A stretch of DNA of 32,000 nt. Source: Candidatus Electrothrix sp. GW3-4 (lineage in GTDB: Bacteria > Desulfobacterota > Desulfobulbia > Desulfobulbales > Desulfobulbaceae). The notes under the pieces are model-generated. The model was not told where the DNA came from, made no database searches, and saw nothing but the letters and a program-made list of their open reading frames with translations. Made by a program: the position numbers and the translations under genes. The stretch is taken from the NCBI RefSeq assembly GCF_037902255.1, contig NZ_CP147990.1, positions 2,910,001 through 2,942,000 on the forward strand, read 5' to 3'. The stretch's first letter is position 1; every line of letters begins with the position of its first letter. Of this stretch, positions 1 to 21,142 are shown piece after piece.

Positions 1-400
1 CACAGCCCGCTCAAACATCGTCTCCGCCGCCGGGTAATCCTGCTTCTGATTCTTCAGAAAGACGGCGTAGTTGCCCAGATTGTCCGCATGCTTCGGGTCA
101 GCCTCCACGGCCCGCTCGTACATCGCTTCCGCTGCCGCGTAGTCCTTCTTTTGATCAGCCAGAAAATTGGCGTAGTTGCCCAGATTGTCCGCATGCTTCG
201 GGTCAGCCTCCACGGCCCGCTCGTACATCGCTTCCGCTGCCGCGTAGTCCTGCTTCTGATTCTTCAGAAAGACGGCGTAGTTGCCCAGATTGTCCGCATG
301 CTTCGGGTCAGCCTCCACGGCCCGCTCGTACATCGCTTCCGCTGCCGCGTAGTCCTTCTTTTGATCAGCCAGAAAATTGGCGTAGTTGCCGTAAGCATCT
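1..400 (-). repeat. 105-bp-period (35-codon) tandem repeat encoding TPR modules, organised as a 210-bp higher-order repeat with long nucleotide-identical stretches
   Basis: The string ggcgtagttgcc recurs at 64, 169, 274 and 379, a period of 105 bp. Segment 88-~390 shows two alternating unit variants (...ttcttttgatcagccagaaaattg... and ...tgcttctgattcttcagaaagacg...). Positions 88-180 are identical to 298-390. Confidence 0.9.
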
Positions 401-3273
401 GCCCTTTCATTATCCGTCTTTGCCAGCTGAAGAGCTGTATTGAACCGATCTTCTTCACCTGCTAACTCAGCTTTCTTTAAAATATCCTCGGTAATCCTGT
501 CCAGTTCTCCAAAAATAAGAAGATACGCCTGCCTGAGTAAATCGCTATTCCCGGCAAATTGCTTAAACATCAGACGAATGACATCTTGGGGATTCTCTTT
601 TGCTATTTCTTGAAACTTGCCACGCTCTTCATCAAAAAGTTTATAAAATTCGCTAAACTGAAAAATAGATAGCTCTTCCAATGCCGAACTGCTCACCCGT
701 AACTTTTCAAATACATTAAGCGAAAGCGATAACTCCAACAAATTGATAAAACTATCAGCATTAAAATCAATCTCATCCCGATCGACTAAGCTATCCTGAG
801 CACTGACCCTATAAGAGAGAAAAACCAGTTCCCAATCCACCAAACTATTCCGAATGCAGAGTCGATGCAGGGCGGCAATCCGGCGTTGATCTGTTTCACC
901 GGATAGCGGCAGTTCTCCTGAATAGCCAGTAGGAAAATGATTAGCATTAATAAAATCAGCACTCTCTCTGAGTGTCTCCGTCTCCGGCACTGCATACTCA
1001 GCCAAGAACTCCTGAAACCAAATCCGCCACAACAAGGGCGCACAAATCTTCGCCAGAAAGTTCCTATCTTCTTTACCCAGCGGCTCCACCACCTTCTCAG
1101 CCAAACCATAACAGGAAACATGCTCCTCCAGCCCTTTCTCCGACCAATGATTCAGCAACCCAAAATTATCCAACCGCTGCAGGGCCGTTGCCGGATCAGC
1201 AATCCCGGCCTTGGGGCCAGCCTGAAGCAACAGCTCTTCCGGCACAGGAAAATCAAACAGGGTCAGCAATCGCAACAACTGCAACTCCGTATCACTCAAG
1301 GCCCTGCTGTACACCTCCAAGGCAATACGCTGCAAATACTTGTCCAGATCATCGCCAGACGAGTCACTCTGCTCCGTTTGCGTGGCCCGGTAATCGCCAA
1401 TCCTTTCCAAAGCCCGGTCAAGCGCGACGGTTTCCCCTTTGAGCAAGGGCTGAAAAAGCAGATGCTGCAAACCAGGATTGCCTTTGCCTGCATCATAAAT
1501 CCGTTGCAAATACTGGCTATCCTGCTCACCTTCCTCTCTTTCCCCCTGAGCCGTCTCCTGCAAGGCCAGCCAGTGCATTTTCAGCTCAGTTTCTGTCATA
1601 TCCGGCACATTAATCGCCTTCAGCCTTGCGGCCACATCATCGCCACAACGATTCTGCACAACAAATTTATAACGGGAAGTGAGCAGTAGACGGGATTCGG
1701 TATCGGCCTCATCAAAGGCTTCAATAATGGCGGTCAAGGTTGCCTGATAATCCAGTTTCACTTTAGCTTCTTTCCGATCACCAGACAGCTCTTCCAGGAC
1801 ATGCTGCTCCAGATCATCCAGAACCAAAAGAATTGGCTGCTGATCAAACACTCCTTCCAGCAGGTCGACCAGAACGTCTTTGAAATCTTCAGGTTGTTCC
1901 TGCACCTGAGCAATGAGTTTCGGGAAATCAACCTTCTCTTTCGCCCCTCTTGCCGCAGCCCCCAGAGTTTGCAGCACATCAAAGGACTGATACTTCCTGT
2001 ACAGCACAGCCGTCTTAAAGGGATCTTCCAGACGGTCCGCAATCCGTGCAGCCAGGCTTGATTTGCCGCTCCCGCCGATGGCATAGAGCAGCACACCGGC
2101 ATAGTCCCGTTCCGCAAAGACCCGAAGCACCTCCTTGGTCTGCCGCCGCCTGCCCACAAAGGTCTCCCGGCTGGCGACCCGTACCTCCTGCTTTTCCTTG
2201 TCCAACAATTCATGGCAGGGCCTGCCCTTGCGCCGTTGGCTTTTTGGCTTTGCTCTCGAAACCAGAGGTTCTCCACCCTGCGCACTGAGGCAGCAACGAC
2301 CCAGGTGCCAATGGGTATATCCCTTCTCCAATAAAGCCTGTCGGGCACGAGCACAGGCATCAGGCACGGTTGCCTGTCTCTGAAGGGCCTGATAGAAATA
2401 TTCAGCAAAAACTGTTGCATCCTCATCAGCCACAGCACCGTCCCAACCAACGATGTTGCCAATACCCAAACGGGCCAAGTCAATCATAAGGGAATGCCTG
2501 TCCTGATGATTTGCACTATGACAGGCTGAGAGAAACAGGGTGCTGAACTGCTCATGCAGGCGCAGCCGACCGAAGTCATGGGCCGTTGCCGTCATCAGCC
2601 CAAATTGTTCATCTTCCAGATGCAGGACAAAACCGCGTTCAGCATCAAAACTGCCATGACAGGAAAGATGGAGCACATCACAATGATTCGCCTCGGAGAG
2701 GCGACGGCTCAACGCCTCAAGGTTGCCGGACTCATCAACCAGGAGATTGAGGTTTCTATGGTTTCTGGTCGCGGTGAAGATGGCCCGTTCTTCAGCTTCA
2801 TAGTTCAGCCCACTGTTTAATCCGGGGTCAGCCGCCATAAAGGCCAGGGTCAAATCTTTATAACGGGGCTGGAGAGGAGCTGAGGAAGGTTGGCCCACCC
2901 GACGAATCACTTCAAAGGGCACCACATCGTCTGTGAGAAACTGATTATTCTCAGCCAGGACTTCCCAGGGAAGATGGAGGAGAAGTTGCTGTTCCGGGGT
3001 GGGATTCGCATCGCTAAAAACAGTTAAACAGCGTGAACCTGTTGCATTCAGCCAGAGTCGTGTTTCAGCTGGTTGGGTATTGATGACAGCAAACAGGGTC
3101 TGGCCGATTACCAACAGCGCAGCTGTATCGTCGGATTTCTGAAGGTCATGGTATTGATCACAGCAGGCTTGCAGTTCAGCGATAAGGGTATCAGTCAGCT
3201 TAACAGACACCGCTGGTCGCTCACCAAACGTACAAACCAGCTTCTGTTCAATGATGTTGACTGTCAGTTCCAT
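1..3273 (-). CDS. CHAT (caspase-like Cys protease) / STAND-type P-loop NTPase / TPR multidomain protein; C-terminal end lies beyond the left window edge
   Basis: Not in the supplied ORF track because there is no stop codon inside the window. Manual minus-strand translation from ATG 3273..3271 (GAGG about 8 nt upstream) stays open for all 1091 codons down to position 1 (MELTVNIIEQKLVCTFGERPAV...). Caspase/CHAT-type His motif DVLHLSCHG is at 2653-2676 and Cys motif TLFLSACHS at 2515-2538. Walker A AIGGSGKSSLA is at 2056-2082. Walker B ILLVLDDLE is at 1807-1830, followed by LLLTSRYKF (NB-ARC-like TSR/TTR motif). The C-terminus has 35-aa TPR-like units ADNLGNYAxFLxxQKxDYAAAEAMYERAVEADPKH. Confidence 0.85.
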   Translation of the reverse strand, partial: MELTVNIIEQKLVCTFGERPAVSVKLTDTLIAELQACCDQYHDLQKSDDTAALLVIGQTLFAVINTQPAETRLWLNATGSRCLTVFSDANPTPEQQLLLHLPWEVLAENNQFLTDDVVPFEVIRRVGQPSSAPLQPRYKDLTLAFMAADPGLNSGLNYEAEERAIFTATRNHRNLNLLVDESGNLEALSRRLSEANHCDVLHLSCHGSFDAERGFVLHLEDEQFGLMTATAHDFGRLRLHEQFSTLFLSACHSANHQDRHSLMIDLARLGIGNIVGWDGAVADEDATVFAEYFYQALQRQATVPDACARARQALLEKGYTHWHLGRCCLSAQGGEPLVSRAKPKSQRRKGRPCHELLDKEKQEVRVASRETFVGRRRQTKEVLRVFAERDYAGVLLYAIGGSGKSSLAARIADRLEDPFKTAVLYRKYQSFDVLQTLGAAARGAKEKVDFPKLIAQVQEQPEDFKDVLVDLLEGVFDQQPILLVLDDLEQHVLEELSGDRKEAKVKLDYQATLTAIIEAFDEADTESRLLLTSRYKFVVQNRCGDDVAARLKAINVPDMTETELKMHWLALQETAQGEREEGEQDSQYLQRIYDAGKGNPGLQHLLFQPLLKGETVALDRALERIGDYRATQTEQSDSSGDDLDKYLQRIALEVYSRALSDTELQLLRLLTLFDFPVPEELLLQAGPKAGIADPATALQRLDNFGLLNHWSEKGLEEHVSCYGLAEKVVEPLGKEDRNFLAKICAPLLWRIWFQEFLAEYAVPETETLRESADFINANHFPTGYSGELPLSGETDQRRIAALHRLCIRNSLVDWELVFLSYRVSAQDSLVDRDEIDFNADSFINLLELSLSLNVFEKLRVSSSALEELSIFQFSEFYKLFDEERGKFQEIAKENPQDVIRLMFKQFAGNSDLLRQAYLLIFGELDRITEDILKKAELAGEEDRFNTALQLAKTDNERADAYGNYANFLADQKKDYAAAEAMYERAVEADPKHADNLGNYAVFLKNQKQDYAAAEAMYERAVEADPKHADNLGNYANFLADQKKDYAAAEAMYERAVEADPKHADNLGNYAVFLKNQKQDYPAAETMFERAV

Positions 3274-3309
3274 ACCATCCTCGCTCTCTTCAAAAGCACC
3301 TCAGCTCAA

Positions 3310-3927
3310 TCACCCCTTACGCATCAAGGCCGGATAATCCTCGCGCAGGAAATTATGGAGCAGCACCGGCCCAACACCGGTCATGATGGATTCGGGATGA
3401 AACTGCACGCCCTCCACATTCAGGGTCTTATGGCGTATACCCATCAACTCACCTTGATCTGTATGAGCTGTGGCCTCAAGGCAATCCGGCAGAGTGGATT
3501 CCTCCACCACCAGGGAATGGTAGCGCATGCCGGCAAAGGGATTCTCCAGACCGTAGAACACCCCGCGACCATCGTGGTGCATGGGACTGGTCTTGCCGTG
3601 CATCACCCTACCCGCTCGGATTACCTTGCCACCAAAGGCCTCGCCGATGGACTGATGCCCGAGGCAGACCCCGAGGATAGGAATCTTACCGCTGAAATAC
3701 TGGATGGCCTCCACCGAGATTCCCGCTTCCTTGGGGGTACAGGGACCAGGGGAAATCAGCAGACGGGCCGGTGCCATATCAGCAATTTCCTGCACCGTGA
3801 TCTTATCATTGCGAAAGACCCGGATATCAGGCTGCTGCCAGTCCGCAGGTGCTCCCGGAGGAGCCGCCGCTAAGGTTTGAACAATATTAAAGGTAAACGA
3901 ATCGTAGTTATCAATAATAATAAGCAC
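3310..3927 (-). CDS. trpG: anthranilate synthase component II (glutamine amidotransferase, TrpG/PabA type)
   Basis: MLIIIDNYDSFTFN..., catalytic GVCLGHQ, FHPES; GTG start 2 nt after the trpE stop. Confidence 0.9.
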   Translation of the reverse strand: MLIIIDNYDSFTFNIVQTLAAAPPGAPADWQQPDIRVFRNDKITVQEIADMAPARLLISPGPCTPKEAGISVEAIQYFSGKIPILGVCLGHQSIGEAFGGKVIRAGRVMHGKTSPMHHDGRGVFYGLENPFAGMRYHSLVVEESTLPDCLEATAHTDQGELMGIRHKTLNVEGVQFHPESIMTGVGPVLLHNFLREDYPALMRKG

Positions 3928-3929
3928 GG

Positions 3930-5423
3930 CTATAGCCCCTGTTCAGCAAGTTCGACAGCCCGACGTAATCCTCGGGCCTTATTGACCGTTTCCTCGAATT
4001 CTTTTTCCGGCACAGAGTCAGACACAATACCTGCCCCGGCCTGAATCCAGAGATCATTATCCTTCATAAGAAAGGTACGGATGGTGATGCAGAAATCCAT
4101 ATTGCCGGAAAATCCAAAATAGCCTACAGCCCCGGCATAAGGACCGCGCCGCTCCGGCTCCAGCTCCTCAATAATTTCCATTGCCCGGACCTTGGATGCC
4201 CCACTGACAGTACCTGCCGGAAAACAGGCCTCCAGCACATCAAACTGATCCTTCCCTTCTGCCAGTTGCCCGTGGACCCCAGAGACAATATGCATCACAT
4301 GACTGTACTGCTCAACAACCAACAGATCACCGGTGACCACGGAGCCACCTTCAGCTACCCTGCCCACATCATTACGGCCCAGATCCACCAGCATCAGGTG
4401 CTCAGCCCGCTCCTTGGGATCGGCCAACAGCTCCTCTTCCAACTCCTTATCCTCCTGCGGGCTTGCACCCCGCTTCCGGGTCCCGGCAATGGGCCGAAGC
4501 TCAATCTCACTATCTTCCAGGCGCACCAGAATCTCCGGTGACGAGCCGATCAGGATACTCTCATCCAGGCGAAGATAGAAGAGATAGGGACTGGGGTTGA
4601 TATGACGCAGGGAACGGTAGAGGAGCAGGGGATCAAGCTCGGTCTTGGCATGAAAACGCTGGGACAGCACCACCTGAATGATGTCACCGGCCAGGATATA
4701 CTCCTTGGCCCGCTCCACCATACCAACAAAACCTGCCTCATCCATATTGGAGCTAAAGCTATGCGGGGGTGACGCAGCGGCATGCGCCACCAAAGAGGTC
4801 GGCAAAGGTCGCCGGATCAGCTCAATAATCCTCTCAATGCGCTGGCATCCGTCCTGATAGAGGGCCGTGGTATCTGCTGACTCTGCCCCCTTGCCGGGCA
4901 CTACATTACAAACCACAGTCAGGGTTTGGTTGACTGCGTCGTGAATCAGCACCAACCGAGGCACAATGAAAGAGGAATCAGGAAAATCAAGGGGGGGATG
5001 TTGATCCGGGATCTCTTCAATAAAACGAATCATATCATAGCCGAGGAATCCGACCGCTCCGCCGTAGAAACGGGGCAACCCCGGTGCAGTACTGGCATTG
5101 AAGGAGGCCAGCAACGCACGCAGTTCCTGGAACGGATTCACTCCCTCCCGAATATCCTCAACCTCGGAACCGGCTTGACGCAAGGTCACGGCATCGCCAA
5201 CAGAGGAAAAAGACAGCAGCGGGTCCAGGCCGATAAAGGAATAGCGACCCCATTTTTCCCCACCCTCCATGGATTCAAAGAGAAAAGCGTGTTTTTCCTT
5301 TTCCGCCACCTTGGCAAAGACGGTCAAAGGGGTATCAAGATCTGCGACAATTGTCCGATGAAGAGGGACAAGACCTGCCTGTTCCATCATCTCGGCAAAG
5401 GATTCCAAGTCAGGAGAATACAT
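3930..5423 (-). CDS. trpE: anthranilate synthase component I
   Basis: 497 aa with the chorismate-binding family motifs LYRSLRHINPSPYLFYL, GTRKRG and GAGIVSDS; located directly upstream of trpG. Confidence 0.93.
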   Translation of the reverse strand: MYSPDLESFAEMMEQAGLVPLHRTIVADLDTPLTVFAKVAEKEKHAFLFESMEGGEKWGRYSFIGLDPLLSFSSVGDAVTLRQAGSEVEDIREGVNPFQELRALLASFNASTAPGLPRFYGGAVGFLGYDMIRFIEEIPDQHPPLDFPDSSFIVPRLVLIHDAVNQTLTVVCNVVPGKGAESADTTALYQDGCQRIERIIELIRRPLPTSLVAHAAASPPHSFSSNMDEAGFVGMVERAKEYILAGDIIQVVLSQRFHAKTELDPLLLYRSLRHINPSPYLFYLRLDESILIGSSPEILVRLEDSEIELRPIAGTRKRGASPQEDKELEEELLADPKERAEHLMLVDLGRNDVGRVAEGGSVVTGDLLVVEQYSHVMHIVSGVHGQLAEGKDQFDVLEACFPAGTVSGASKVRAMEIIEELEPERRGPYAGAVGYFGFSGNMDFCITIRTFLMKDNDLWIQAGAGIVSDSVPEKEFEETVNKARGLRRAVELAEQGL

Positions 5424-5882: not shown

Positions 5883-6123
5883 GAAAACTCCTTGATGCTG
5901 TCTATAAAGTATTCTATAAAATATAATCCTGAAAGCTATCACTTGCAGATAGCTGCTTATGACAAAAAAACAGAACGATCTTCCTTAAACCGGGGGGATT
6001 TCTTTTCCCAGAGAAATCCATTGTAAAATAAACTATACCGTATAGCTGAATAAATCCCTCTTGTCAACTCTATTTGCAGAACAACGCGTTTTTCGCTGAC
6101 TTTTCTTCGAAAAAATTTTCTTT

Positions 6124-6148
6124 AAAAAAACTTCTGGCTGCAGAGAAG
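6124..6148 (-). terminator. possible Rho-independent terminator after the pentapeptide-repeat gene
   Basis: Minus strand reads CTTCT-ctgcagcc-AGAAG followed by T7, immediately after the stop at 6152. The stem is short (5 bp). Confidence 0.4.
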
Positions 6149-6151
6149 GGT

Positions 6152-7768
6152 TTATTCTTTCTCATGTGCAAAATCAAGTTGCGCGCCGATTGCACCGGTA
6201 AAATTAGTTGAGTCAAGCAAGGCCCCTTGCAACTGGGCGCCAGTAAGGTTGGCATGGGTAAAATCAGCAAGGTAGAGATCTGCCGCCCGCAGGTCTGCAT
6301 TATACAAATTTGCGTTGGTGAAATTGACCCCTTTCAGGTTTGCCGAGCGAAGGTCAGTCCCTTCCAGCCGGGCACCACTGAGGTCTGCCCGTTCCAGATC
6401 CACCTCTTCCAGGTCTTCCTCCCGCAGTTCAGCCCCGGCGAGGTCACAGGCCACGCAACGCCTCTCTTCAAGCAATTTATCGATCAGCCCCTGCAATCGG
6501 GCTCGACTCTGGGCAAAGGTCTCGACGGTATAGGCCCCAAGCTGCTGTTCTGCCCCTTGCTTATTGACCTCGGGAACGAGGGGGACTTGAGCGGGAGTGG
6601 TTGCTGCTTCTTTTTCAGGCTCGGGCCCCTGCTCAGCCCCTTGCTCGCTTAGCGAGGCCTGGGCCGTCGGCCGAACTTCCTTTTTTTCCTGAGCAACTTC
6701 CTCGACTTCACCAGCTTCATCGGCTTCATCGGCTTCATCGGCTTCAGTGACGGCCTCTGCTGCCTTTTTCTTCTCCGCACTATCAGAGTCAAACAGAGAG
6801 GTAAAGGTATCCCAGAGGCTCAGCTCTGCCCCTCTGTCCTCAGCCCCACCTTCTTTTTGCCCGGACGCGGTATTGATCACCGGAATTTCATCAAGCCCGG
6901 TCGTTTGCTTCTTGGTTTGTTTCTTGGCCAGCGCCGAATCAGGCTGGGTCTTCTTCTGCACCGGGGGGGCTATCTGAGCATCCTCGATAGGGACCAATTC
7001 CTTCGAGCGCAGTGTTGTTGCGGCCCTTCCCGCAATATCAGGGAGGGCTACCTTTTTTTTTTCTTCCAGTCCCTGATCCGCCTCAGATAATCCAGGGGGT
7101 GCAGGCAGTTCCGGTTCCACAGGGGGCTCTTCAACGACCGAGATATCGGCGGAAGGCATACTATCTTTTTCCTCAGAATCAGAAGCGGCTGTCTCAGATG
7201 CAGCTTCAATTCCTCGCTCTGGGCTTATCAGTTCCTGAGGAGGAGCTTGCATGGTTGAATCAGGAAGTACAACCTCCTCCTCAGCCCTCTCCACATCCTG
7301 GGGAGGTTCTGGCAGCGTACCTGCTTCCTGTTTAGGGAGAACCTCAGGCAGTTCTTCAGGTTCATAGGGCTTTTCAGGAGTAATTTCCTGATCCATAAGC
7401 GCCTCTTTCAGATAGGCCCCAGCCAGCTGCGCATCGGTCAGATCAGCGCCCCGAAGATCAGCACCAGCAAAATCCGTTCCTCCAAGGACAGCACCCCGCA
7501 GGACAGCGTTATGCAGATTGGCCTTGGATAAATTTGTCAGGCTGAGCTTGGCACCCGAGAGATCAGCTCCCTGCAGATCAGCCCCCTGCAAATTCATTCT
7601 GGTTAAGACCGCCCCTCGCAGATCACAACGGGGGCATTGCTTGGTTGTTACCAGCCGGTTAAAGTTCTTCTGGATATCCTGATCAGAAGCCCCCAGAGAT
7701 TCAGCTGACGCAGCTGTGCCACAGAGCAGCAGACACGCGCAAAGATACATATAGTTATTTTTTTTCAT
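6152..7768 (-). CDS. exported pentapeptide-repeat protein with a central acidic/Pro-rich low-complexity linker
   Basis: Signal peptide MKKNNYMYLCACLLLCGTAASA. Pentapeptide (A[DN]LxG-type) blocks occur at both ends (RCDLRGAVLTRMNLQGADLQGADLSGAKL... and ...ADLSGARLEGTDLRSANLKGVNFTNANLYNADL). The middle of the protein is E/P/A-rich. Confidence 0.85.
   Translation of the reverse strand: MKKNNYMYLCACLLLCGTAASAESLGASDQDIQKNFNRLVTTKQCPRCDLRGAVLTRMNLQGADLQGADLSGAKLSLTNLSKANLHNAVLRGAVLGGTDFAGADLRGADLTDAQLAGAYLKEALMDQEITPEKPYEPEELPEVLPKQEAGTLPEPPQDVERAEEEVVLPDSTMQAPPQELISPERGIEAASETAASDSEEKDSMPSADISVVEEPPVEPELPAPPGLSEADQGLEEKKKVALPDIAGRAATTLRSKELVPIEDAQIAPPVQKKTQPDSALAKKQTKKQTTGLDEIPVINTASGQKEGGAEDRGAELSLWDTFTSLFDSDSAEKKKAAEAVTEADEADEADEAGEVEEVAQEKKEVRPTAQASLSEQGAEQGPEPEKEAATTPAQVPLVPEVNKQGAEQQLGAYTVETFAQSRARLQGLIDKLLEERRCVACDLAGAELREEDLEEVDLERADLSGARLEGTDLRSANLKGVNFTNANLYNADLRAADLYLADFTHANLTGAQLQGALLDSTNFTGAIGAQLDFAHEKE
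6712..6747 (-). repeat. 9-nt tandem repeat (4 units) inside the pentapeptide-repeat gene, encoding EADEADEADEA
   Basis: cagcttcat cggcttcat cggcttcat cggcttcag on the plus strand. Confidence 0.85.
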
Positions 7769-7858
7769 TCTCCTTCCCCGTGCCGACAGCTGCCATTTGA
7801 TCCCGTCTTCCTCCTGCTCAATACGCAGCGGACTTCGCTTGCAGAGCCATCATTCTCT

Positions 7859-8302
7859 TCAGCTTGTCTCTTTGGGCCAGACAAGATTACTGTATATCCA
7901 TCCAGTTAACTCAGGATGGCTTATCTTGAACCAATTCCCCTCAGTTTCTACTTTTTTCAGGATAACATCGCGAACCACCTTACCGACCTTATCATAGTTT
8001 GTGCCAGGACCTGATCGAACATTCCCTTCATCAGCTCGTACAATAACATAGGGCGTTTTGGCAACAAGACCGGCATAAATCCAGCCCTTATCGTTCTCAT
8101 AATCACTGACCTTGATCCATTTCTTGTCCCGCTCCAGCACCTTCAGCGGATAGCCTGCAGGCAGCTGAAAGAGGATCTCATGGCTGGTCGTTGGGCCAGA
8201 ACGGAGATTCACCCCATCTTTGACAACTGATACAAACTCAGCAGCTCCGGCAACTCCAGTCAGCATCGTTGCCAGCACCACTGTTAGAATACAGACTCTC
8301 AT
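7859..8302 (-). CDS. exported protein with two bacterial SH3 (SH3b) domains
   Basis: GVNLRSGPTTSHEILFQLPAGYPLKVLERDKKWIKV and NVRSGPGTNYDKVGKVVRDVILKKVETEGNWFKI are SH3_3-like. The start was placed at ATG 8302, preceded by AAGGAGGGC; the track ORF starts at 8329. Confidence 0.75.
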   Translation of the reverse strand: MRVCILTVVLATMLTGVAGAAEFVSVVKDGVNLRSGPTTSHEILFQLPAGYPLKVLERDKKWIKVSDYENDKGWIYAGLVAKTPYVIVRADEGNVRSGPGTNYDKVGKVVRDVILKKVETEGNWFKISHPELTGWIYSNLVWPKETS

Positions 8303-8361
8303 GCCCTCCTTAAAAAATCGGTATCGCATTAGATTCTCCTTATTTTTACCACTTTTCTTTC

Positions 8362-9117
8362 TCAGATTTTTCTTTCAAAATTCTCAGCAACTGTAAAGTA
8401 CAAGAGGAACTCTTGGTTGCCTTTTGCTCCACAGATCGTCGATGCAACTTCCCCTCGACAGCCCAGCCCTATTTCCTCGGCAAATTGTTTCACCGAGTCT
8501 ATGGCCTCTTGATGCAATGTACGTTCCCGCACAACCCCCCCGGTCCCGACCTTATCCCTGGCAAGCTCAAACTGCGGCTTGACTAAGGCCAAAATGCGAA
8601 CAAGCCCACCAAACAACGGCAAGAGCGGTGGCAGCAAGGAACGCAAAGAGATAAATGAGGCATCCAGGACGACCAAATCCAGGGGCTCAGGTATATGTTG
8701 ACGGGTCAGATAGCGGGCATTGGTCCGTTCATGCAGAATAACCCGTTCATCCTGGCGCAACTTCCACGCCAGTAGCCCGTAGCCCACATCCACGGCATAG
8801 ACACGGGCTGCCCCATTCCAGAGTAAGCAATCAGTGAACCCTCCGGTTGAGCAACCAATATCAGCGCACACCCACCCTGCCGGAACAATGCCCAACTGCT
8901 TAAGACCACCAGCAAGTTTTTCCCCGCCTCGGCTAACAAAAGGGGAACTTTTCCGCACCCGAACCTCACTGTCCTTCGGGACCAGGCTTCCTGCCTTATA
9001 ATCAGTCCTGGTGTTGACAATGACCTGGCCTGCCCCTATCAGGGCCTGTGCCTTTTTCAGATCAACAGCCAATCCGCGTTCGATCAGCAACTGATCCAAC
9101 CGTTTTTTTTTTGGCAA
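8362..9117 (-). CDS. tlyA: TlyA-family rRNA 2'-O-methyltransferase (S4 domain + FtsJ-like methyltransferase)
   Basis: KRLDQLLIERGLA (S4-like), DIGCSTGGFTD (SAM-binding), FISL. TTG start 11 nt after the cpoB stop; codons 3-5 form an A10 tract. Confidence 0.85.
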   Translation of the reverse strand: MPKKKRLDQLLIERGLAVDLKKAQALIGAGQVIVNTRTDYKAGSLVPKDSEVRVRKSSPFVSRGGEKLAGGLKQLGIVPAGWVCADIGCSTGGFTDCLLWNGAARVYAVDVGYGLLAWKLRQDERVILHERTNARYLTRQHIPEPLDLVVLDASFISLRSLLPPLLPLFGGLVRILALVKPQFELARDKVGTGGVVRERTLHQEAIDSVKQFAEEIGLGCRGEVASTICGAKGNQEFLLYFTVAENFERKI

Positions 9118-9128
9118 GAGGTTACCTG

Positions 9129-10316
9129 CTACAGGCTTTCCAAGCGTTGCCGAGCTACCCCGGCCTCTCTACTGTTCGGGTAATCAGCGGTCAACTTGGT
9201 ATAGATAATCTTGGCGGTCTCATGGTCGGTCAGCTTCTCAAACGACATGCCCTGTCGGAGTAATGCAGCAGAACTATGAGGATTTCGCCTATAATTTGAA
9301 ATCACCTTTTGATAATCAAGAATGGCCAAATCATACTCACCCAGATTAAAAAGGCACTCTCCCATAAAATACAAAGTCTTGGCAGCCTGATCATCAGCAG
9401 GATGTCCTGCCAGGACCTGCTCAAAGACCTTGTACGCTGATTTATAGTCCTTGGCCTTAAACTGGGAAATCCCCTGCTCAAGTAAACTCTCCCTCATATC
9501 CAATTGCTGTCTCTGCGGTGGATGCTCCATAACAGAGGCTTGTTGCTGTACCGGAACCTCCTGCACCTGCTGGACCTGCTGTCGCGGTTGCCGCCTGGTT
9601 ACAATCTCTTTCTGTTTTTGCGGCATAATCGTGGGGCGCGATGAGGCATTCACAATGGGTTGGTTAATCCGCAACTGGGTTTGCGGCGGCGGCGCAGAGT
9701 CCACCACAGCTCCGTAGTTCTTCCGAACCTTTCTATTGCTTGGCAGTAAAATCGTGTTTTCGCTCTGTCGATCTTGTGTGGCTAATACAGCTCTTCTCTT
9801 AGCCTGCTCTGCCCTCTCTGCTGCCTGTCGCGCCTTCTTTTCAGCTGCATAGACCCTGGACTGACTCAGCCTCTGAATATTGCTGGACAATTTATTAATC
9901 TTTGACTCAAGGGTCTGAATAAGCTGCTCATTTTCCCGGCGAACATGGACGCTTTCCGAGCGGACCTGATCACTCTCAGAACGGATCTGCTGATTTTCCC
10001 GGCGTAGCTGTTGCAAGGCCTCTTCCAACTCATCAATCTTTTGCGCATCCTGCTCTCGCTTTCGACTAATCGCCTCTAAATTTTCCTCGGTTATGGTCCG
10101 AAACTCACGGGTCTCCTCAGCTACGTTGTCCAACTGGGTTGAGGATTCAGCTGTTCGCTTCAAGACCTGATTTGTGGTATTGGCTTCAACTTCCTTAACT
10201 TTCTGGTTCATGGTACGAAGCTGATAATTCAACCTTCGTACATCGTCCACACTTGCGCATTGGCAAAGCAGGAGAGCCGAGCAGCTGGCAAACGCAATAG
10301 CTTGTATTTTTTTCAT
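9129..10316 (-). CDS. cpoB: Tol-Pal system protein CpoB/YbgF-like (signal peptide, long coiled coil, C-terminal TPR)
   Basis: N-terminal hydrophobic signal, a heptad-rich E/Q/R region and a Q/P-rich linker. The C-terminal segment (FKAKDYKSAYKVFEQVLAGHP...YFMGECLFNLGEYDLAILDYQKVISNY...YPNSREAGVARQRL) is a YbgF-type TPR domain. The gene sits directly downstream of tolB. Confidence 0.75.
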   Translation of the reverse strand: MKKIQAIAFASCSALLLCQCASVDDVRRLNYQLRTMNQKVKEVEANTTNQVLKRTAESSTQLDNVAEETREFRTITEENLEAISRKREQDAQKIDELEEALQQLRRENQQIRSESDQVRSESVHVRRENEQLIQTLESKINKLSSNIQRLSQSRVYAAEKKARQAAERAEQAKRRAVLATQDRQSENTILLPSNRKVRKNYGAVVDSAPPPQTQLRINQPIVNASSRPTIMPQKQKEIVTRRQPRQQVQQVQEVPVQQQASVMEHPPQRQQLDMRESLLEQGISQFKAKDYKSAYKVFEQVLAGHPADDQAAKTLYFMGECLFNLGEYDLAILDYQKVISNYRRNPHSSAALLRQGMSFEKLTDHETAKIIYTKLTADYPNSREAGVARQRLESL

Positions 10317-17439: not shown

Positions 17440-18678
17440 TCAGGAACCAGCCTTTTTGCGCAGAACAAAGAGATCCCCCCGTATCCAGGCACCCTCTTCC
17501 CGGCGTAGGTCCGCCTCTTCAGAGGTGAGCAGCTGCCAGCCACGACGTTGCGCGACCTCAACCACGTAGGCAGGATGATGGGCAAAGCGCCCTGTCTGTC
17601 TGACCTGCCAATCCTTTTTCTCGCCATGCTCGGTGGAAAAAACAAAAAGGCCACCCGGTGCCATGCGCTGAAAAGCAGCAACCAGTAAGGGCTCCAGGTC
17701 AGCCAGATAGGTAAACAGATCAGCAGCAACCAGCAAATCATACTGCTGCTCATCTTCACAAAGAAAGTGAACCACATCATCAGCAACAAGCCGATCATAA
17801 ATCCCCTTGTCAGCTGCCAAAGCAATCATCTTTTCCGACAGGTCCACCCCGCTCAACTGCTGACAACAACTGCTGAACAGCTTGCCAGCAAGTCCTGTGC
17901 CGCAGCCGAGATCCAGACAATGGGTATATACTTGTCCCGAGTCCTTTCCCTGCGTTGCCTGAGTGCGCAGAACAAGATCAAAGAGCAGCTCAGGAACGCG
18001 ATAGCCTAGTTTGCCCACCAGACTCTGCTCAAAGCTCTCGCTGTACTGATCAAAAAGATCGCGTACATAGGCGTTCTCTGGCGTGCCTGTAGCCTTGCCA
18101 GTCAGGGCGGCCAGCATGTGCCGGGTACCGGGATGATCTGGCTGGAGTTGAAGCAGCCGCTGATACAACTGCTCTGCCTGGCCATAATCATGGTGCAGAT
18201 GGCAGAGATAGGCAAAATTATTCAGGGCCGAGACATTCTCAGGCTCAAGTTCGAGCAGCCGGGCATAATACACTGCTGCCTCCTCCCAATCCCCGCTCTC
18301 CCGACAGCAATTAGCCAGATTAAAGAGGACATCCCGATCATAGGGTTGTAGGGCCAGGGCCTGTTCATAGGCATCCATCGCCTCGGGATACTGCTGCTCC
18401 TGCTTCAGGGCCAATCCCAAATTATACCAGGTATCGGCATCGTCCTCCCGCAATTCCGCTGCCCGCGAAAAGACAGCTGCCGCTTCAGCATAACGCTCCA
18501 GATCAAACAGGGCCAAGCCCTGATTATAAAGCACCACATCCGCATCTGGGAAATGGGTAAGTATTTCTCCGTAAAGTTCTATTGCCTCAGCGACCTCACC
18601 GCTCTCATGGGCCGAAACCGCTTGAGTATATATTTGTTGTATATCTTCGACCTTATCATCATGTGCTCCTCGTTCCAA
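17440..18678 (-). CDS. TPR-repeat protein fused to a class I SAM-dependent methyltransferase (COG4976-like architecture)
   Basis: The N-terminal half has TPR units (AIELYGEIL..., YNQGLALFDLERYAEAAAVFSRAAEL, WYNLGLALKQEQQYPEAMDAYEQALAL...). The C-terminal half has methyltransferase motif I (CLDLGCGTGLAG) and DLLVAADLFTY. Apparent TTG start. Confidence 0.8.
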   Translation of the reverse strand: MERGAHDDKVEDIQQIYTQAVSAHESGEVAEAIELYGEILTHFPDADVVLYNQGLALFDLERYAEAAAVFSRAAELREDDADTWYNLGLALKQEQQYPEAMDAYEQALALQPYDRDVLFNLANCCRESGDWEEAAVYYARLLELEPENVSALNNFAYLCHLHHDYGQAEQLYQRLLQLQPDHPGTRHMLAALTGKATGTPENAYVRDLFDQYSESFEQSLVGKLGYRVPELLFDLVLRTQATQGKDSGQVYTHCLDLGCGTGLAGKLFSSCCQQLSGVDLSEKMIALAADKGIYDRLVADDVVHFLCEDEQQYDLLVAADLFTYLADLEPLLVAAFQRMAPGGLFVFSTEHGEKKDWQVRQTGRFAHHPAYVVEVAQRRGWQLLTSEEADLRREEGAWIRGDLFVLRKKAGS

Positions 18679-20135: not shown

Positions 20136-20478
20136 GGAGACTCCGTTGGTCCTGGATTGATGATCTGATGTTCGCCGGAAGAGAACAAGAATCTGCCGAC
20201 GACCTCTGTTTCTCCGAAACAAAACATACTAAAGGCTGTGATCAGGTGCGTCAAGGGCTTCCTCCAGCCTCTATCGCATAAAAAACCAGCAACACCTATG
20301 CAGAGAATATTCCTGTGCAAGAAGAAAAAAACAGAACAAGAGGCTACTCAAAATCGCTACCAATCAGCAGCATAAAAAAACCGTTTGCAAGCTCTTAACT
20401 TCTCTTATATTATCCTAAACATCTGGCTCATAAATCATAAAGACTATGGGCTCCAATACAAGCAGAAGGGAGATTGTC

Positions 20479-21090: not shown

Positions 21091-21142
21091 TTACCCTGAT
21101 GAAGCGCGGTTCAGAAAAAACAGTTTCAGAGGTGAAAACCTT

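What the first reader, a model, noticed from the sequence alone, without database searches (positions are those of the whole stretch)
1..3273. Hidden giant ORF: CHAT protease - STAND NTPase - TPR array (NLR/Avs-like architecture) directly behind trpEG
**Seen in sequence**
- The supplied ORF track shows only short, implausible ORFs in the first 3.3 kb.
- The minus-strand frame starting at ATG 3273 is open for 1091 codons and leaves the window without a stop.
- It encodes, in order: a ~130-aa N-terminal region, a caspase-like CHAT domain with both catalytic motifs intact (HLSCHG, LSACHS), a P-loop NTPase with Walker A, Walker B and a TSR motif of the STAND/NB-ARC type, a helical region, and nucleotide-identical TPR repeats.
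- It sits 36 nt behind trpG on the same strand, an odd housekeeping neighbour.

**Established knowledge**
- Effector + STAND NTPase + repeat sensor is the logic of bacterial NLR-like/Avs antiphage proteins and of apoptosis-type ATPases.
- CHAT is the protease of the type III-E Csx29 TPR-CHAT effector.

**Inference**
- A CHAT-effector STAND protein with this domain order has, to my knowledge, no characterised trigger or substrate. I cannot judge its closest relatives without a search.
Basis: partly seen in the sequence, partly recalled or inferred. Interest (0 to 1): 0.75.

Follow-up and report, generated by a model that had tools for sequence, protein, structure and literature searches.

The report
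Caspase-like NLR-type sensor gene, truncated
The first 3.3 kb of the window really do encode most of a large bacterial "NOD-like receptor" carrying a caspase-like protease, a widespread but untested kind of cell-death or immunity protein; its relatives always carry a small, unannotated partner gene just downstream that is probably the protease's substrate.

Summary
The minus strand from 3273 to 1 is open for 1091 codons and encodes an N-terminal α/β region plus CHAT protease (His206/Cys251), a STAND NTPase (Walker A K404, Walker B D486-D487, TSR534, GNPGLQ), a helical spacer and 35-residue TPR units, two of them nucleotide-identical. Pfam, a confident AlphaFold model (pLDDT 90) and fold matches to Apaf-1, CED-4, Avs3 and SAVED-CHAT agree.

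The gene is conserved (dN/dS 0.19) and belongs to a large family with the same architecture. The closest named relative is Candidatus Electrothrix laxa, a cable bacterium.

The trpG adjacency is genus-level synteny at a variable insertion site, not a functional link.

New here: in ten of ten relatives' loci from the relevant clades, a ~120-aa protein with no Pfam match lies directly downstream. It has a near-invariant Lys/Arg in a flexible linker before a hydrophobic segment. That layout resembles EACC1, the pore-forming pro-toxin cleaved by the caspase-Avs12 protein (2025 preprint). In this window the partner would lie beyond position 1.

Verdict: a real gene and a new, uncharacterised member of a known kind (protease-STAND-repeat sensor with a small effector). 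Trigger and substrate are inferred, not shown.

The parts
1..3273 (-). Partial coding sequence: codons 1-1091 of a CHAT-STAND-TPR protein. The C-terminus lies beyond window position 1. The closest complete relative is 1413 aa.
   Evidence: Open frame; 81% identity over about 1090 aa to P0001; dN/dS 0.19; AlphaFold model pLDDT 90.2, pTM 0.77.
2284..3273 (-). aa 1-330: a conserved α/β N-terminal segment (aa 1 to about 96, no Pfam assignment) followed by the caspase-like CHAT protease domain.
   Evidence: Pfam CHAT 97-317, E 4e-22. The N-terminal 100-130 aa have no Pfam match even at E<=10. The region is modelled at pLDDT above 90. Fold match to the SAVED-CHAT filament 8tl0, E 4.5e-6.
2656..2658 (-). 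Codon of the catalytic His206 (HLSCH-G).
   Evidence: His in 118 of 118 aligned residues; the following Gly in 117 of 118.
2521..2523 (-). Codon of the catalytic Cys251 (LSA-C-HS).
   Evidence: Cys in 117 of 118 aligned residues.
1084..2181 (-). aa 365-730: the NOD module of a STAND NTPase (P-loop domain, helical domain, winged-helix region).
   Evidence: Pfam AAA_16 and nSTAND1, both above their gathering scores. Secondary structure of the model. Best PDB fold matches are Apaf-1 (3shf, 8e-8), CED-4, ZAR1, Avs3 and NOD2.
2059..2082 (-). Walker A, AIGGSGKS (aa 398-405), with Lys404.
   Evidence: G403 in 118 of 119 and K404 in 119 of 119 aligned residues.
1813..1833 (-). Walker B, ILLVLDD (aa 481-487), followed by E489.
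   Evidence: D486 in 120 of 121 relatives. D486, D487 and E489 are invariant in the 48-sequence alignment.
1672..1680 (-). Sensor-1 motif T532-S533-R534 (hhhTSR), typical of STAND NTPases.
   Evidence: T in 121 of 121, S in 118 of 121, R in 121 of 121.
1465..1482 (-). GNPGLQ (aa 598-603), the 'GxP' motif of the helical domain.
   Evidence: G598 in 117 of 118 and P600 in 107 of 118 aligned residues. G601, L602 and Q603 are invariant.
460..1083 (-). aa 731-938: an all-helical spacer between the NOD and the regular repeats, with no Pfam assignment.
   Evidence: Helices throughout in the model. No Pfam hit at E<=10 for window:460-1425, which is aa 617-938. This is the least constrained tested segment outside the TPR array (aa 616-940, dN/dS 0.21, dS 0.73).
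1..459 (-). aa 939-1091: the start of the TPR array. It holds one capping unit, three complete 35-residue units and part of a fifth. The array continues off the window.
   Evidence: Pfam TPR_17, TPR_19 and TPR_8. TRF period 105 nt x 3.7 copies and 210 nt x 1.9 copies. Unit coordinates.
250..354 (-). TPR unit (aa 974-1008), 105/105 nucleotide-identical to the unit at 40-144.
145..249 (-). TPR unit (aa 1009-1043), 96/105 identical to its neighbours. Eight of the nine differences change the amino acid at repeat positions 28, 31, 32 and 35.
   Evidence: The same positions are the most variable within the arrays of relatives.
40..144 (-). TPR unit (aa 1044-1078), identical to the unit at 250-354.
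3274..3309 (-). 36-nt spacer between the trpG stop and the ATG. It has a GAGGA Shine-Dalgarno-like element at 3278-3282 and no terminator-like hairpin.
   Evidence: Sequence. No terminator-like site between trpG and the ORF; the nearest on this strand are at 4147-4126 (inside trpE) and at 5554-5526 (upstream of trpE).
3310..5423 (-). trpG (3310-3927) and trpE (3930-5423). These are upstream neighbours, possibly co-transcribed, and not part of the system.
   Evidence: Pfam and NCBIfam matches. The linkage is seen only in Ca. Electrothrix laxa, and there three genes are inserted.

Best explanation
The ORF is the first 1091 codons of a functional protein of about 1400 aa from a cable bacterium related to Candidatus Electrothrix. 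The domain order is caspase-like CHAT protease, STAND NTPase (NOD), helical spacer, then TPR array.

It most likely works as a bacterial NLR-type switch.
1. The TPR array binds a trigger protein. A phage protein is the most likely trigger.
2. Binding releases auto-inhibition of the NOD.
3. The NOD exchanges ADP for ATP and oligomerises.
4. Oligomerisation brings the N-terminal CHAT domains together and activates them.
5. The protease cleaves the small partner protein of about 120 aa that is encoded directly downstream in all close relatives. In this window that gene would lie beyond position 1.
6. Cleavage would occur after the near-invariant Lys/Arg44, in the flexible linker between an acidic N-terminal βαβ lobe of about 5 kDa and a basic C-terminal part of about 8.4 kDa that starts with a hydrophobic segment.
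7. The released C-terminal fragment would then act as a toxic effector, probably on the membrane, and cause abortive infection or cell death.

Shown here:
- the ORF, its domains, intact and conserved catalytic and NTPase motifs, and purifying selection;
- the fold;
- the conserved two-gene arrangement in relatives;
- the partner's layout and its conserved basic residue;
- concerted evolution of the repeats, with variation focused on a few positions.

Inferred:
- the trigger, the oligomerisation and the protease activation;
- that the partner is the substrate, where it is cut and what it does;
- that the partner gene follows the ORF in this genome.
For: Architecture and integrity
- Searches give the ORF and its domains.
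- His206 and Cys251, Walker A and B, TSR and GxP are conserved in 117-121 of 121 relatives.
- dN/dS is 0.11 for CHAT, 0.20 for the NOD and 0.19 overall.
- The model has pLDDT 90.2. Fold matches include Apaf-1, CED-4, ZAR1, Avs3, NOD2 and SAVED-CHAT.

Partner gene
- A homologous Pfam-less ORF of 117-141 aa lies directly 3' of the big gene in L001, L002, L003/L004, L005, L008, L013, L015, L007, L016 and L017. The arrangement ranges from a 4-nt overlap to a 19-nt gap in most loci.
- Two database proteins, P0180 and P0205, join the C-terminal TPR part of a big-protein relative to the partner domain.
- The family is small and otherwise unannotated: 58 clusters, or 37 representatives among 1.84 billion proteins.

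Partner layout
- The model (pLDDT 79) reads β-α-β, a low-confidence loop at 36-50, then β-α-β-β-α.
- Position 44 is K or R in 56 of 57 members and is the only conserved residue in the linker.
- The hydrophobic segment has a median Kyte-Doolittle 19-residue score of 1.44 in the close clade and 2.15 in the distant one, and carries a central P-G/A patch.

Precedents
- KrAvs12 (caspase-like protease plus Avs12) cleaves the 12.8-kDa EACC1 into 5.7 and 7.1 kDa fragments, and the C-terminal fragment forms membrane pores. A Lysobacter caspase-like protease cuts after Arg followed by Gly (PMC12642450).
- nSTAND1 occurs in EACC1-caspase systems (PMC8195603).

Sensor
- Repeat number varies between relatives, with 3 to 14 anchor-motif units counted.
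- Repeats are near-identical within a protein but differ between proteins.
- Within-protein variation is focused on repeat positions 7, 14, 19, 21, 22, 28, 31 and 32.

Mobile or conflict-type neighbours in relatives
- Primase/Toprim plus HTH genes in L007 and L017.
- A DDE transposase in L008.
- Flanking PD-(D/E)XK transposase-like genes in L013: one directly upstream, one after the partner gene. L001 has the same upstream gene and only a faint HTH_Rpn_C hit downstream.
- Fic in L016 and MoxR-vWA in L005.
Against: - No experiment exists for any member of this clade.
- PADLOC models of known defence systems do not match the protein or its partner.
- In the window itself the upstream neighbours are housekeeping genes: trpEG, rpsT and the Tol-Pal genes.
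- The partner gene cannot be seen in the window.
- The partner is 3' of the protease gene, whereas EACC1 is described as 5'.
- Its conserved linker residue is basic, whereas EACC1 is reported to be cut at Asp49.
- AlphaFold places the hydrophobic segment as a buried β-strand in the intact protein. This fits a latent pro-toxin but does not show membrane activity.
- Actinobacterial members and L006 lack the partner, so the big protein can evidently work without it.
- The highly regular TPR array differs from the irregular, target-enveloping sensors of characterised Avs proteins (PMC13581612).
Confidence: 0.6

Rival explanations
1. The sensor and switch are the same, but the CHAT domain is a broad-specificity executioner protease that degrades many cellular or phage proteins. 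The small downstream protein would then be a regulator, inhibitor or adaptor rather than a pro-toxin.
For: - Many family members have no partner gene, namely the actinobacterial loci L009 and L010, and L006. The protease must therefore have other substrates there.
- Broad-acting caspase-like proteases (PCaspase) are cited as characterised in bacterial defence (PMC12642450 and references in PMC13581612).
- The partner has a plain ferredoxin-like fold, which is also common in small regulators such as PII and in immunity proteins such as CdiI. Those fold matches are weak, with E>=5e-3.
Against: - The partner has a conserved K/R in a flexible linker, directly before a conserved hydrophobic segment.
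- Its size and two-lobe layout parallel EACC1 (PMC12642450).
- The genes are tightly coupled, with 4-nt overlaps, and occasionally fused.
- All of this fits a dedicated substrate.
Confidence: 0.2
2. The molecular mechanism is the same, but the biological role is not phage defence. It could control self-inflicted cell death in a multicellular filament, for example filament fragmentation or 'ghost' cells. It could also mediate recognition of non-kin, as fungal NLR-type heterokaryon-incompatibility proteins do.
For: - The closest relatives come from filamentous, multicellular bacteria: Ca. Electrothrix, Thiothrix, Thiofilum and Cocleimonas.
- The cable-bacteria literature notes that caspase-domain genes are present and that their link to cell death in filaments is unknown (PMC12163305).
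- Near-identical repeats with a few hypervariable positions and variable copy number are, to my knowledge, the hallmark of fungal NLR repeat sensors. PMC10907252 draws that comparison for bacterial conflict systems.
- The window neighbourhood is housekeeping.
Against: - The family also occurs in unicellular Vibrio cholerae and Pseudoalteromonas.
- It sits next to mobile-element genes in several genomes.
- All experimentally tested protease-STAND systems so far respond to phage proteins (PMC12642450, PMC13581612).
Confidence: 0.12
3. The gene is functionally tied to tryptophan biosynthesis because it lies 36 nt behind trpG with no terminator in between.
For: A 36-nt spacer on the same strand, with no terminator-like hairpin. 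trpE and trpG also lie upstream of the Ca. E. laxa copy.
Against: - In E. laxa three unrelated genes separate trpG from the CHAT gene.
- In the 84%-identical relative L001, the gene 12 nt upstream is a PD-(D/E)XK transposase-like gene.
- In all other genera the upstream genes are unrelated.
- The pattern is that of a variable insertion site downstream of trpG.
Confidence: 0.02
4. The ORF is a decaying or catalytically dead remnant, either an inactive scaffold or a pseudogene.
For: The Ca. E. laxa copy is split over three reading frames and lacks the TPR array. This shows that copies can decay, or that this single-cell assembly has errors.
Against: 1091 uninterrupted codons, all catalytic and NTPase residues intact, and dN/dS of 0.11-0.21 against the nearest relative.
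Confidence: 0.02

Closest known systems
KrAvs12 with EACC1: a caspase-like protease fused to the STAND sensor Avs12, plus a small pro-toxin (Evans et al., bioRxiv 2025, PMC12642450)
   Same: - An N-terminal caspase-like cysteine protease, a STAND NTPase and a helical-repeat sensor in one polypeptide.
- A tightly linked gene for a non-enzymatic protein of about 12-13 kDa.
- That protein has a small N-terminal lobe, a linker, and a C-terminal part that begins with a conserved hydrophobic segment.
- The predicted fragments are 5.0 and 8.4 kDa here, against 5.7 and 7.1 kDa for EACC1.
   Different: - The partner here is encoded 3' of the protease gene, not 5'.
- It matches no Pfam family.
- Its conserved linker residue is Lys/Arg, not the Asp49 reported for EACC1.
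- The sensor is a regular array of near-identical 35-residue TPR units.
- Whether the NOD belongs to the Avs12 clade could not be tested.
- No trigger is known.
'System 4', the EACC1-caspase two-gene conflict system, and nSTAND1 NTPases (Kaur et al. 2020, PMC7159879; Kaur et al. 2021, PMC8195603)
   Same: - A constant N-terminal caspase-superfamily peptidase with a variable C-terminus that can include STAND NTPases and repeats.
- An nSTAND1 match above threshold.
- Enrichment in multicellular bacteria.
- A small partner with a central hydrophobic segment that carries a patch of small residues.
   Different: - The gene order is reversed.
- The partner is not detectably EACC1 by sequence.
- AlphaFold models the hydrophobic segment as a β-strand in the intact protein, not a transmembrane helix.
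- The actinobacterial members of this family, which is the phylum where System 4 is said to be prevalent, have no adjacent small partner.
Antiviral STAND NTPases: Avs/AVAST and the 2026 survey of 589 prokaryotic STAND clades (PMC13581612)
   Same: A tripartite layout of effector, NOD and TPR-like sensor, with fold similarity to Avs3 (8dgc). [quoted passage not shown]
   Different: No match to the Avs or any other PADLOC defence models. Avs sensors are irregular and wrap around their target, whereas this one is a regular repeat array. No phage trigger or protection has been shown.
Apaf-1 and CED-4 apoptosome ATPases
   Same: They are the best structural matches for the NOD (3shf and 3sfz at about 1e-7; CED-4 4m9s). 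They share the logic of ligand-induced oligomerisation that activates a caspase-family protease.
   Different: Here the protease is fused to the NOD rather than recruited through CARD domains. The sensor is TPR, not WD40. Sequence identity is only about 15%.
Type III-E CRISPR 'Craspase': Csx29 (TPR-CHAT) cleaving Csx30
   Same: A CHAT protease combined with TPRs, and a small neighbouring protein as the dedicated substrate.
   Different: - Csx29 has its TPRs N-terminal to CHAT and has no NTPase.
- It is switched on by the RNA-guided Cas7-11 (gRAMP) complex.
- No Cas7-11-sized ORF is present in the window, and none was called in the relatives' loci.
SAVED-CHAT, a cyclic-nucleotide-activated CHAT protease filament (PDB 8tl0)
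   Same: It is the closest solved structure for the protease domain (E 4.5e-6).
   Different: It is activated by a second messenger through a SAVED domain, not by a STAND/TPR module.
Fungal NLRs with highly conserved WD40, ANK or TPR repeats (HET-E, NWD family). This comparison rests on my own knowledge; PMC10907252 makes the same comparison for bacterial systems.
   Same: A NOD plus an array of near-identical repeats with variable copy number, and variation focused on a few repeat positions.
   Different: A different kingdom, different effector domains, and an allorecognition role. No evidence for such a role exists here.

Membership tests
CHAT / caspase-like clan CD cysteine protease (Pfam PF12770) | Significant profile match above the curated threshold | tested here: met
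   79.4 bits against a cutoff of 24, aa 97-317.
CHAT / caspase-like clan CD cysteine protease (Pfam PF12770) | Catalytic His (followed by Gly) and catalytic Cys both present and conserved | tested here: met
   H206-G207 and C251. His is present in 118 of 118 and Cys in 117 of 118 aligned relatives.
CHAT / caspase-like clan CD cysteine protease (Pfam PF12770) | Caspase-type α/β fold | tested here: met
   High-confidence model and a match to SAVED-CHAT 8tl0 at E 4.5e-6.
CHAT / caspase-like clan CD cysteine protease (Pfam PF12770) | Proteolytic activity | not testable with these tools
   Needs biochemistry.
STAND NTPase (NLR-type NOD; Pfam AAA_16 and nSTAND1) | Walker A and Walker B motifs | tested here: met
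   GKS with K404 in 119 of 119 relatives; hhhhDD with D486 in 120 of 121.
STAND NTPase (NLR-type NOD; Pfam AAA_16 and nSTAND1) | STAND-specific motifs: sensor-1 Arg (hhhTSR), the GxP motif, and helical plus winged-helix domains after the P-loop domain | tested here: met
   T532-S533-R534, with R in 121 of 121, and GNPGLQ. Helical and winged-helix-like elements at aa 561-725 in the model.
STAND NTPase (NLR-type NOD; Pfam AAA_16 and nSTAND1) | Profile match above the curated threshold | tested here: met
   AAA_16 37.6 bits (cutoff 32.6); nSTAND1 33.6 bits (cutoff 27.1).
STAND NTPase (NLR-type NOD; Pfam AAA_16 and nSTAND1) | Fold similarity to solved NOD modules | tested here: met
   Apaf-1, CED-4, ZAR1, Avs3, NOD2 and SAMD9, with E from 8e-8 to 4e-6.
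STAND NTPase (NLR-type NOD; Pfam AAA_16 and nSTAND1) | Ligand-induced, nucleotide-dependent oligomerisation | not testable with these tools
   Needs biochemistry or cryo-EM.
Avs / AVAST antiviral STAND families | Effector, NOD and C-terminal helical-repeat sensor in one protein | tested here: met
Avs / AVAST antiviral STAND families | Sequence membership of a described Avs family | tested here: not met
   No PADLOC v2 hit for the window protein. The complete relatives gave only insignificant or TPR-only hits. Models for Avs7-21 (PMC13581612) were not available, so those families are untested.
Avs / AVAST antiviral STAND families | Location in defence islands or mobile elements | tested here: inconclusive
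   The window has housekeeping neighbours. Several relatives sit next to primase/Toprim, transposase, PD-(D/E)XK, Fic or MoxR-vWA genes.
Avs / AVAST antiviral STAND families | Activation by a phage protein and protection from phage | not testable with these tools
   Needs experiments.
EACC1-caspase two-gene system (Kaur 2020; Evans 2025) | A protein with an N-terminal caspase-superfamily protease and a variable C-terminus that may include a STAND NTPase and repeats | tested here: met
   nSTAND1 is reported in such systems (PMC8195603).
EACC1-caspase two-gene system (Kaur 2020; Evans 2025) | An adjacent gene for a small protein with a conserved central hydrophobic segment that carries a patch of small residues | tested here: met
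   Met in relatives only: ten of ten loci from the relevant clades, with segments such as 'LILAVPGAIVATLDLAER'. It cannot be observed in the window, because the position lies beyond base 1.
EACC1-caspase two-gene system (Kaur 2020; Evans 2025) | The small protein belongs to the EACC1 sequence family | tested here: inconclusive
   No Pfam family matches any of 37 partner relatives at E<=1-10. I could not confirm that the library holds an EACC1 model, and I had no EACC1 sequence for a profile-profile test.
EACC1-caspase two-gene system (Kaur 2020; Evans 2025) | The small gene lies 5' of the caspase gene | tested here: not met
   It lies 3' in every locus examined.
EACC1-caspase two-gene system (Kaur 2020; Evans 2025) | Cleavage near Asp49 releases a pore-forming C-terminal fragment | not testable with these tools
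   The only conserved linker residue here is K/R44. Cleavage and pore formation need experiments.
Type III-E CRISPR Craspase (Csx29 TPR-CHAT) | TPR N-terminal to CHAT, no NTPase, and an adjacent Cas7-11 (gRAMP) gene with Csx30 | tested here: not met
   The domain order is CHAT, NTPase, TPR. No Cas7-11-sized ORF is present in the 32-kb window, and none was called in the relatives' loci.
CATRA / CATASP caspase-dependent ternary system (Burroughs & Aravind 2020) | Presence of a CATRA protein and of the CATRA-associated small protein | not testable with these tools
   The defining paper is not held and no sequences were available. No conserved third gene is seen next to the pair in the loci examined.
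Bacterial gasdermin-protease systems | The neighbouring substrate is a gasdermin homologue of about 240-300 aa | tested here: not met
   The partner is 117-141 aa with no Pfam match and a ferredoxin-like model.

The most novel reading that the evidence does not exclude
The ~120-aa downstream protein may be a previously undescribed family of protease-activated death effectors. It is analogous to EACC1 in layout but distinct in three ways.
- No sequence family matches it.
- It is encoded 3' of the protease gene.
- It would be licensed by cleavage after a conserved Lys/Arg.

It is paired with a CHAT-nSTAND1 receptor whose regular TPR array evolves the way fungal NLR repeats do, with concerted evolution, changes in copy number and a few hypervariable positions. 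In cable bacteria this pair could be a genetically tractable switch for killing single cells within a conductive multicellular filament, whether in response to phage or to other signals.
Probability: 0.35. Interest if true: 0.6.

Novelty: new member of a known kind. Interest (0 to 1): 0.4.

Why it matters
Bacterial NLR-like proteins with fused caspase-type proteases are seen as evolutionary relatives of the apoptosome and inflammasome, but very few have a known trigger or substrate.

This clade offers a compact two-gene unit with a clear, testable prediction: cleavage of a 13-kDa partner after Lys/Arg44 releases a toxic fragment. Its repeat sensor shows within-array variation focused on a few positions, so recognition surfaces could be mapped by comparing natural variants.

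The gene also sits in cable bacteria. There, cell death inside centimetre-long conductive filaments ('ghost cells') is observed but unexplained, and caspase-domain genes have been flagged as candidates without further analysis (PMC12163305).

For genome annotation the practical lesson is smaller. The gene was invisible only because ORF lists drop frames that run off the window, and relatives are annotated only by domain names ('tetratricopeptide repeat protein', 'CHAT domain-containing protein'; the JGI entry for P0001 reads 'Tfp pilus assembly protein PilF').

Tried and rejected
1. trpG as a functional partner: rejected. Neighbourhoods were compared in 14 loci. Only Ca. E. laxa shares trpEG, and it has a 4-kb insertion in between.
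2. An EACC1-type gene upstream of the ORF: absent in the window, where trpG is 36 nt away, and absent in all relatives.
3. Assigning the partner to a known family failed at every step.
   - Pfam at E<=10 gave nothing.
   - PADLOC gave nothing.
   - Foldseek against the PDB gave only generic ferredoxin-like or designed-protein matches at E>=5e-3.
   - The supplementary files of the EACC1 papers held no sequences.
   - The CATRA/CATASP paper is not held.
4. Reading the partner as a transmembrane protein: not supported for the intact protein. AlphaFold buries the hydrophobic stretch as a β-strand. In the distant subgroup, however, the stretch is hydrophobic enough for a membrane helix.
5. Assigning the N-terminal ~100 aa, the aa 617-938 helical spacer and the C-terminal cap of relatives to Pfam families (EACC2 was the lead for the N-terminus): no hits.
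6. Sequence search of the PDB found only TPR proteins and a marginal AAA+ hit, so fold comparison was needed.
7. A type III-E CRISPR relationship: rejected on domain order and the absence of Cas7-11.
8. A first MAFFT run timed out and was repeated with faster settings.

Full report
**Observation**

The minus strand from 3273 to 1 translates into 1091 codons without a stop, and the frame leaves the window. The mechanical ORF list shows only short ORFs there because it omits ORFs that run off an end.

- HLSCHG at aa 202-207 and LSACHS at aa 248-253;
- Walker A AIGGSGKS at aa 398-405;
- Walker B ILLVLDD at aa 481-487;
- LLLTSRY with T532-S533-R534;
- GNPGLQ at aa 598-603.

Pfam gives CHAT (aa 97-317, 79.4 bits), AAA_16 (37.6 bits) and nSTAND1 (33.6 bits), all above their curated cut-offs. 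Several TPR families match from about aa 941.

The repeats have a 105-nt (35-residue) unit. The units at window 250-354 and 40-144 are identical at all 105 nucleotides. The unit between them differs at 9 positions.

trpG ends at 3310 and the ATG is at 3273, leaving a 36-nt spacer. The spacer has a GAGGA element and no terminator-like hairpin.

**Is it a real, working gene?**

- The product is 81% identical over about 1090 residues to a complete 1413-aa metagenomic protein, P0001.
- Against that relative, dN/dS is 0.11 for the protease region, 0.20 for the NOD, 0.21 for the helical spacer and 0.19 overall.
- In an alignment of 121 relatives, the catalytic His and Cys, the Walker A lysine, the Walker B aspartate, the sensor-1 arginine and the GxP motif are each present in 117-121 sequences.
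- An AlphaFold2 model built on 48 relatives has mean pLDDT 90.2 and pTM 0.77.
- Its best matches among solved structures are full-length Apaf-1 (E about 1e-7), CED-4, SAMD9, the ZAR1 resistosome, Avs3 and NOD2. For the protease part the best match is the SAVED-CHAT filament 8tl0, and for the C-terminus it is consensus TPR proteins.
- A sequence-only search of the PDB had found just the TPRs.

**Source organism and the trpG question**

The window carries trpE, trpG, rpsT, a Tol-Pal cluster and a σ54 activator. A scan of reference genomes found the closest named copy of the CHAT-STAND gene in the chromosome of Candidatus Electrothrix laxa, at 86% identity. Its trpG and trpE are 95% and 87% identical to the window's. 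The window therefore very probably comes from a cable bacterium.

In E. laxa, trpEG also lies upstream, but three genes are inserted before the CHAT gene: a 149-aa ORF, an 878-aa ParA-like P-loop protein and a PD-(D/E)XK transposase-like gene. In the 84%-identical metagenomic relative L001, the gene 12 nt upstream is that same PD-(D/E)XK gene, not trpG. In Thiofilum, Pseudoalteromonas, an Alteromonadaceae MAG, Solidesulfovibrio, actinomycetes and several metagenomic contigs, the upstream genes are all different.

The trpG adjacency is thus genus-level synteny at a variable insertion site. It may cause co-transcription in this genome, but it is not a functional link.

**The family**

The word-indexed search returned 186 proteins, nearly all with the same CHAT, AAA_16/nSTAND1 and TPR order.
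- A close clade at 43-84% identity comes from Electrothrix-like bacteria, Thiotrichales (Cocleimonas, Thiothrix, Thiofilum), Vibrio cholerae, Pseudoalteromonas and Alteromonadaceae.
- A broad clade at 27-36% identity comes from Magnetococcales, Competibacteraceae, Desulfovibrionales, Gemmatimonadota and many actinomycetes.

Sources call these proteins 'CHAT domain-containing protein', 'tetratricopeptide repeat protein' or, wrongly, 'PilF'. None of the PADLOC models of known defence systems matches.

**A conserved downstream partner, outside the window**

In relatives, a small ORF with no Pfam domain follows the big gene at once.
- It overlaps by 4 nt in Pseudoalteromonas (L003/L004) and in L005.
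- The gap is 1 nt in Thiofilum (L002) and Solidesulfovibrio (L007), 2 nt in L017, 19 nt in L016, 74 nt in L008 and about 570 nt in L001.
- tblastn also finds it downstream of the gene in Ca. E. laxa and Thiothrix eikelboomii.

The close-clade copies are 33-56% identical to each other. A profile built from them finds the L008 copy at E 8e-39. An exhaustive HMMER search links them to a more distant subgroup that includes the copies in L016, L017 and Solidesulfovibrio.

The family is small: 58 clusters in the 5.8-billion-protein set and 37 representatives among 1.84 billion. Every named member is 'hypothetical', and none has a Pfam match.

Two database proteins join the C-terminal TPR part of a big-protein relative to the partner domain in one chain (P0180 and P0205). 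Actinobacterial members and one other locus lack the partner.

In the window the partner would lie beyond position 1, so its presence here is an inference from ten of ten loci in the relevant clades.

**What the partner looks like**

Its model (pLDDT 79, pTM 0.70) is a small α/β protein. It has strand-helix-strand at aa 2-35, a low-confidence loop at aa 36-50, then strand 51-58, a long basic helix at 66-86, a β-hairpin and a last helix. Solved structures give only generic ferredoxin-like matches at E>=5e-3.

Across 57 members, the only conserved residue in the loop is position 44. It is Lys in 42 and Arg in 14, followed mostly by Gly, Asp or Ser.

The next segment is hydrophobic. Its median 19-residue Kyte-Doolittle score is 1.44 in the close clade and 2.15 in the distant one, where it reads like 'IAALILAVPGAIVATLDLAER' with a central Pro-Gly/Ala patch. 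A cut after residue 44 would give an acidic 5.0-kDa fragment and a basic 8.4-kDa fragment.

**Comparison with what is known**

N-terminal caspase-superfamily peptidases fused to STAND NTPases and repeats were catalogued by Kaur et al. Their 'System 4' pairs such a protein with a small protein, EACC1. EACC1 is described as having a conserved central hydrophobic helix with a patch of small residues, flanked by short α+β parts (PMC7159879). nSTAND1 was later noted in these systems (PMC8195603).

A 2025 preprint reports that KrAvs12 is activated by a phage protein and cleaves EACC1 into fragments of 5.7 and 7.1 kDa near Asp49. KrAvs12 is a caspase-like protease fused to the sensor Avs12. The C-terminal fragment is toxic and permeabilises liposomes. 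The same preprint reports that a Lysobacter caspase-like protease cuts after Arg followed by Gly (PMC12642450). [quoted passage not shown]

The gene pair found here fits this logic closely. It differs in four ways:
- gene order, since the partner is 3';
- the lack of any detectable sequence match of the partner to a described family;
- a basic rather than acidic conserved linker residue;
- a regular TPR array rather than an irregular sensor.

I could not obtain EACC1 or CATASP sequences, and two structure libraries were unavailable. Whether the partner is a very divergent EACC1 or a separate family therefore remains open.

The type III-E CRISPR protease Csx29 shares only the CHAT and TPR domains. 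It has a different domain order, no NTPase, and depends on Cas7-11, which is absent here.

**The sensor**

Relatives carry between 3 and 14 copies of the repeat's anchor motif, followed by a conserved ~100-aa cap. Within one protein the units are nearly identical, while the consensus differs between proteins at positions 3, 4, 7, 8 and 10. This is the signature of concerted evolution.

Within-protein variation concentrates at repeat positions 7, 14, 19, 21, 22, 28, 31 and 32. In the window, eight of the nine nucleotide differences between adjacent units change the amino acid at positions 28, 31, 32 and 35. This is what a ligand-binding surface that is being reshuffled would look like. To my knowledge it is also the pattern seen in fungal NLR repeat domains.

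**Most likely mechanism**

1. A trigger protein binds the TPR array.
2. The NOD switches to its ATP form and oligomerises.
3. The fused CHAT domains are activated by proximity.
4. They cut the partner after Lys/Arg44.
5. The released hydrophobic and basic C-terminal fragment kills or arrests the cell.

The domain anatomy, motif conservation, selection, fold, gene pairing and partner layout are shown. Every step of signalling and cleavage is inferred from the precedents above.

I put 0.6 on this reading. I put 0.2 on the same switch with a broad-specificity protease and the partner acting as a regulator. I put 0.12 on the same machinery serving developmental cell death or kin recognition in the multicellular filament rather than phage defence; the cable-bacteria literature leaves that open (PMC12163305). 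About 0.02 each goes to a tryptophan link and to an inactive remnant.

**Verdict**

It is a new, uncharacterised member of a known kind of system, not a new kind. The added value of this second look is the organism assignment, the dismissal of the trpG link, and the conserved, unannotated partner gene with a specific, testable cleavage prediction.

Noticed in passing
window 28627-30666 (-), with 27592-28614 (-) and 30827-31981 (-): A 679-aa protein with an N-terminal trypsin-like peptidase domain (Trypsin_2, aa 78-215) and about 450 unassigned residues. It sits between a 384-aa ORF with no Pfam match and a radical-SAM gene. Large trypsin-fusion proteins are another common effector type in bacterial conflict systems.
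   Followed up: no
L013 (Ca. Electrothrix laxa chromosome OW818652.1) 6001-9110: The E. laxa copy of the CHAT-STAND gene is split over three reading frames and has no TPR array before the partner gene at 9293-9646. It is either a decaying copy or an error or repeat collapse in this single-cell assembly.
   Followed up: partly
L013 5200-5988 and 10349-11161; L001 1-411 and 5916-6734: In E. laxa (L013) the two-gene module is bracketed by two PD-(D/E)XK transposase-like (PDDEXK_2, Rpn-type) genes. L001 has the same gene upstream, but its downstream ORF has only a faint HTH_Rpn_C hit on record. The window lacks the upstream copy. This suggests the module sits in a recombination-prone island downstream of trpG.
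   Followed up: partly
L013 2516-5152: An 878-aa protein with a ParA/MinD-like P-loop and a weak nSTAND_NTPase5 hit, preceded by an overlapping 149-aa ORF. It is inserted between trpG and the CHAT gene in E. laxa only.
   Followed up: no
L007 990-5141 and L017 212-2178: Upstream of the distant CHAT-STAND-TPR plus partner pairs lie primase/Toprim (D5_N, Zn-ribbon) and HTH_23 genes. These are typical of integrated mobile elements or phage satellites.
   Followed up: no
L005 1431-4501: A MoxR-type AAA_5/CbbQ_C ATPase, a 750-aa vWA protein and a Sel1-repeat protein lie a few kb upstream of the pair on the opposite strand. This gene set is typical of the MoxR-vWA 'ternary' conflict systems.
   Followed up: no
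P0180 (458 aa) and P0205 (317 aa), database proteins: Each is a C-terminal TPR fragment of a big-protein relative continuing in frame into the partner domain. They could be natural fusions or the result of lost stop codons.
   Followed up: partly
window 6152-7768 (-): A 538-aa protein made almost entirely of pentapeptide repeats. It lies between rpsT and an SH3-domain gene.
   Followed up: no
window 20972-21583 (+), overlapping 20446-21090 (+): A BLUF blue-light/FAD sensor domain protein next to an FMN-reductase-like gene, in what appears to be a sediment-dwelling cable bacterium. The two listed ORFs overlap by about 120 nt, so the BLUF start is probably further downstream.
   Followed up: no
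L001 14026-14358: A Trypco1 (Pepco-type) small protein gene about 9 kb downstream of the CHAT-STAND gene in the 84% relative. This is another protease-associated effector family described in PMC12642450.
   Followed up: no
window 17440-18678 (-): A 412-aa protein combining an N-terminal TPR array with a C-terminal class I methyltransferase domain.
   Followed up: no
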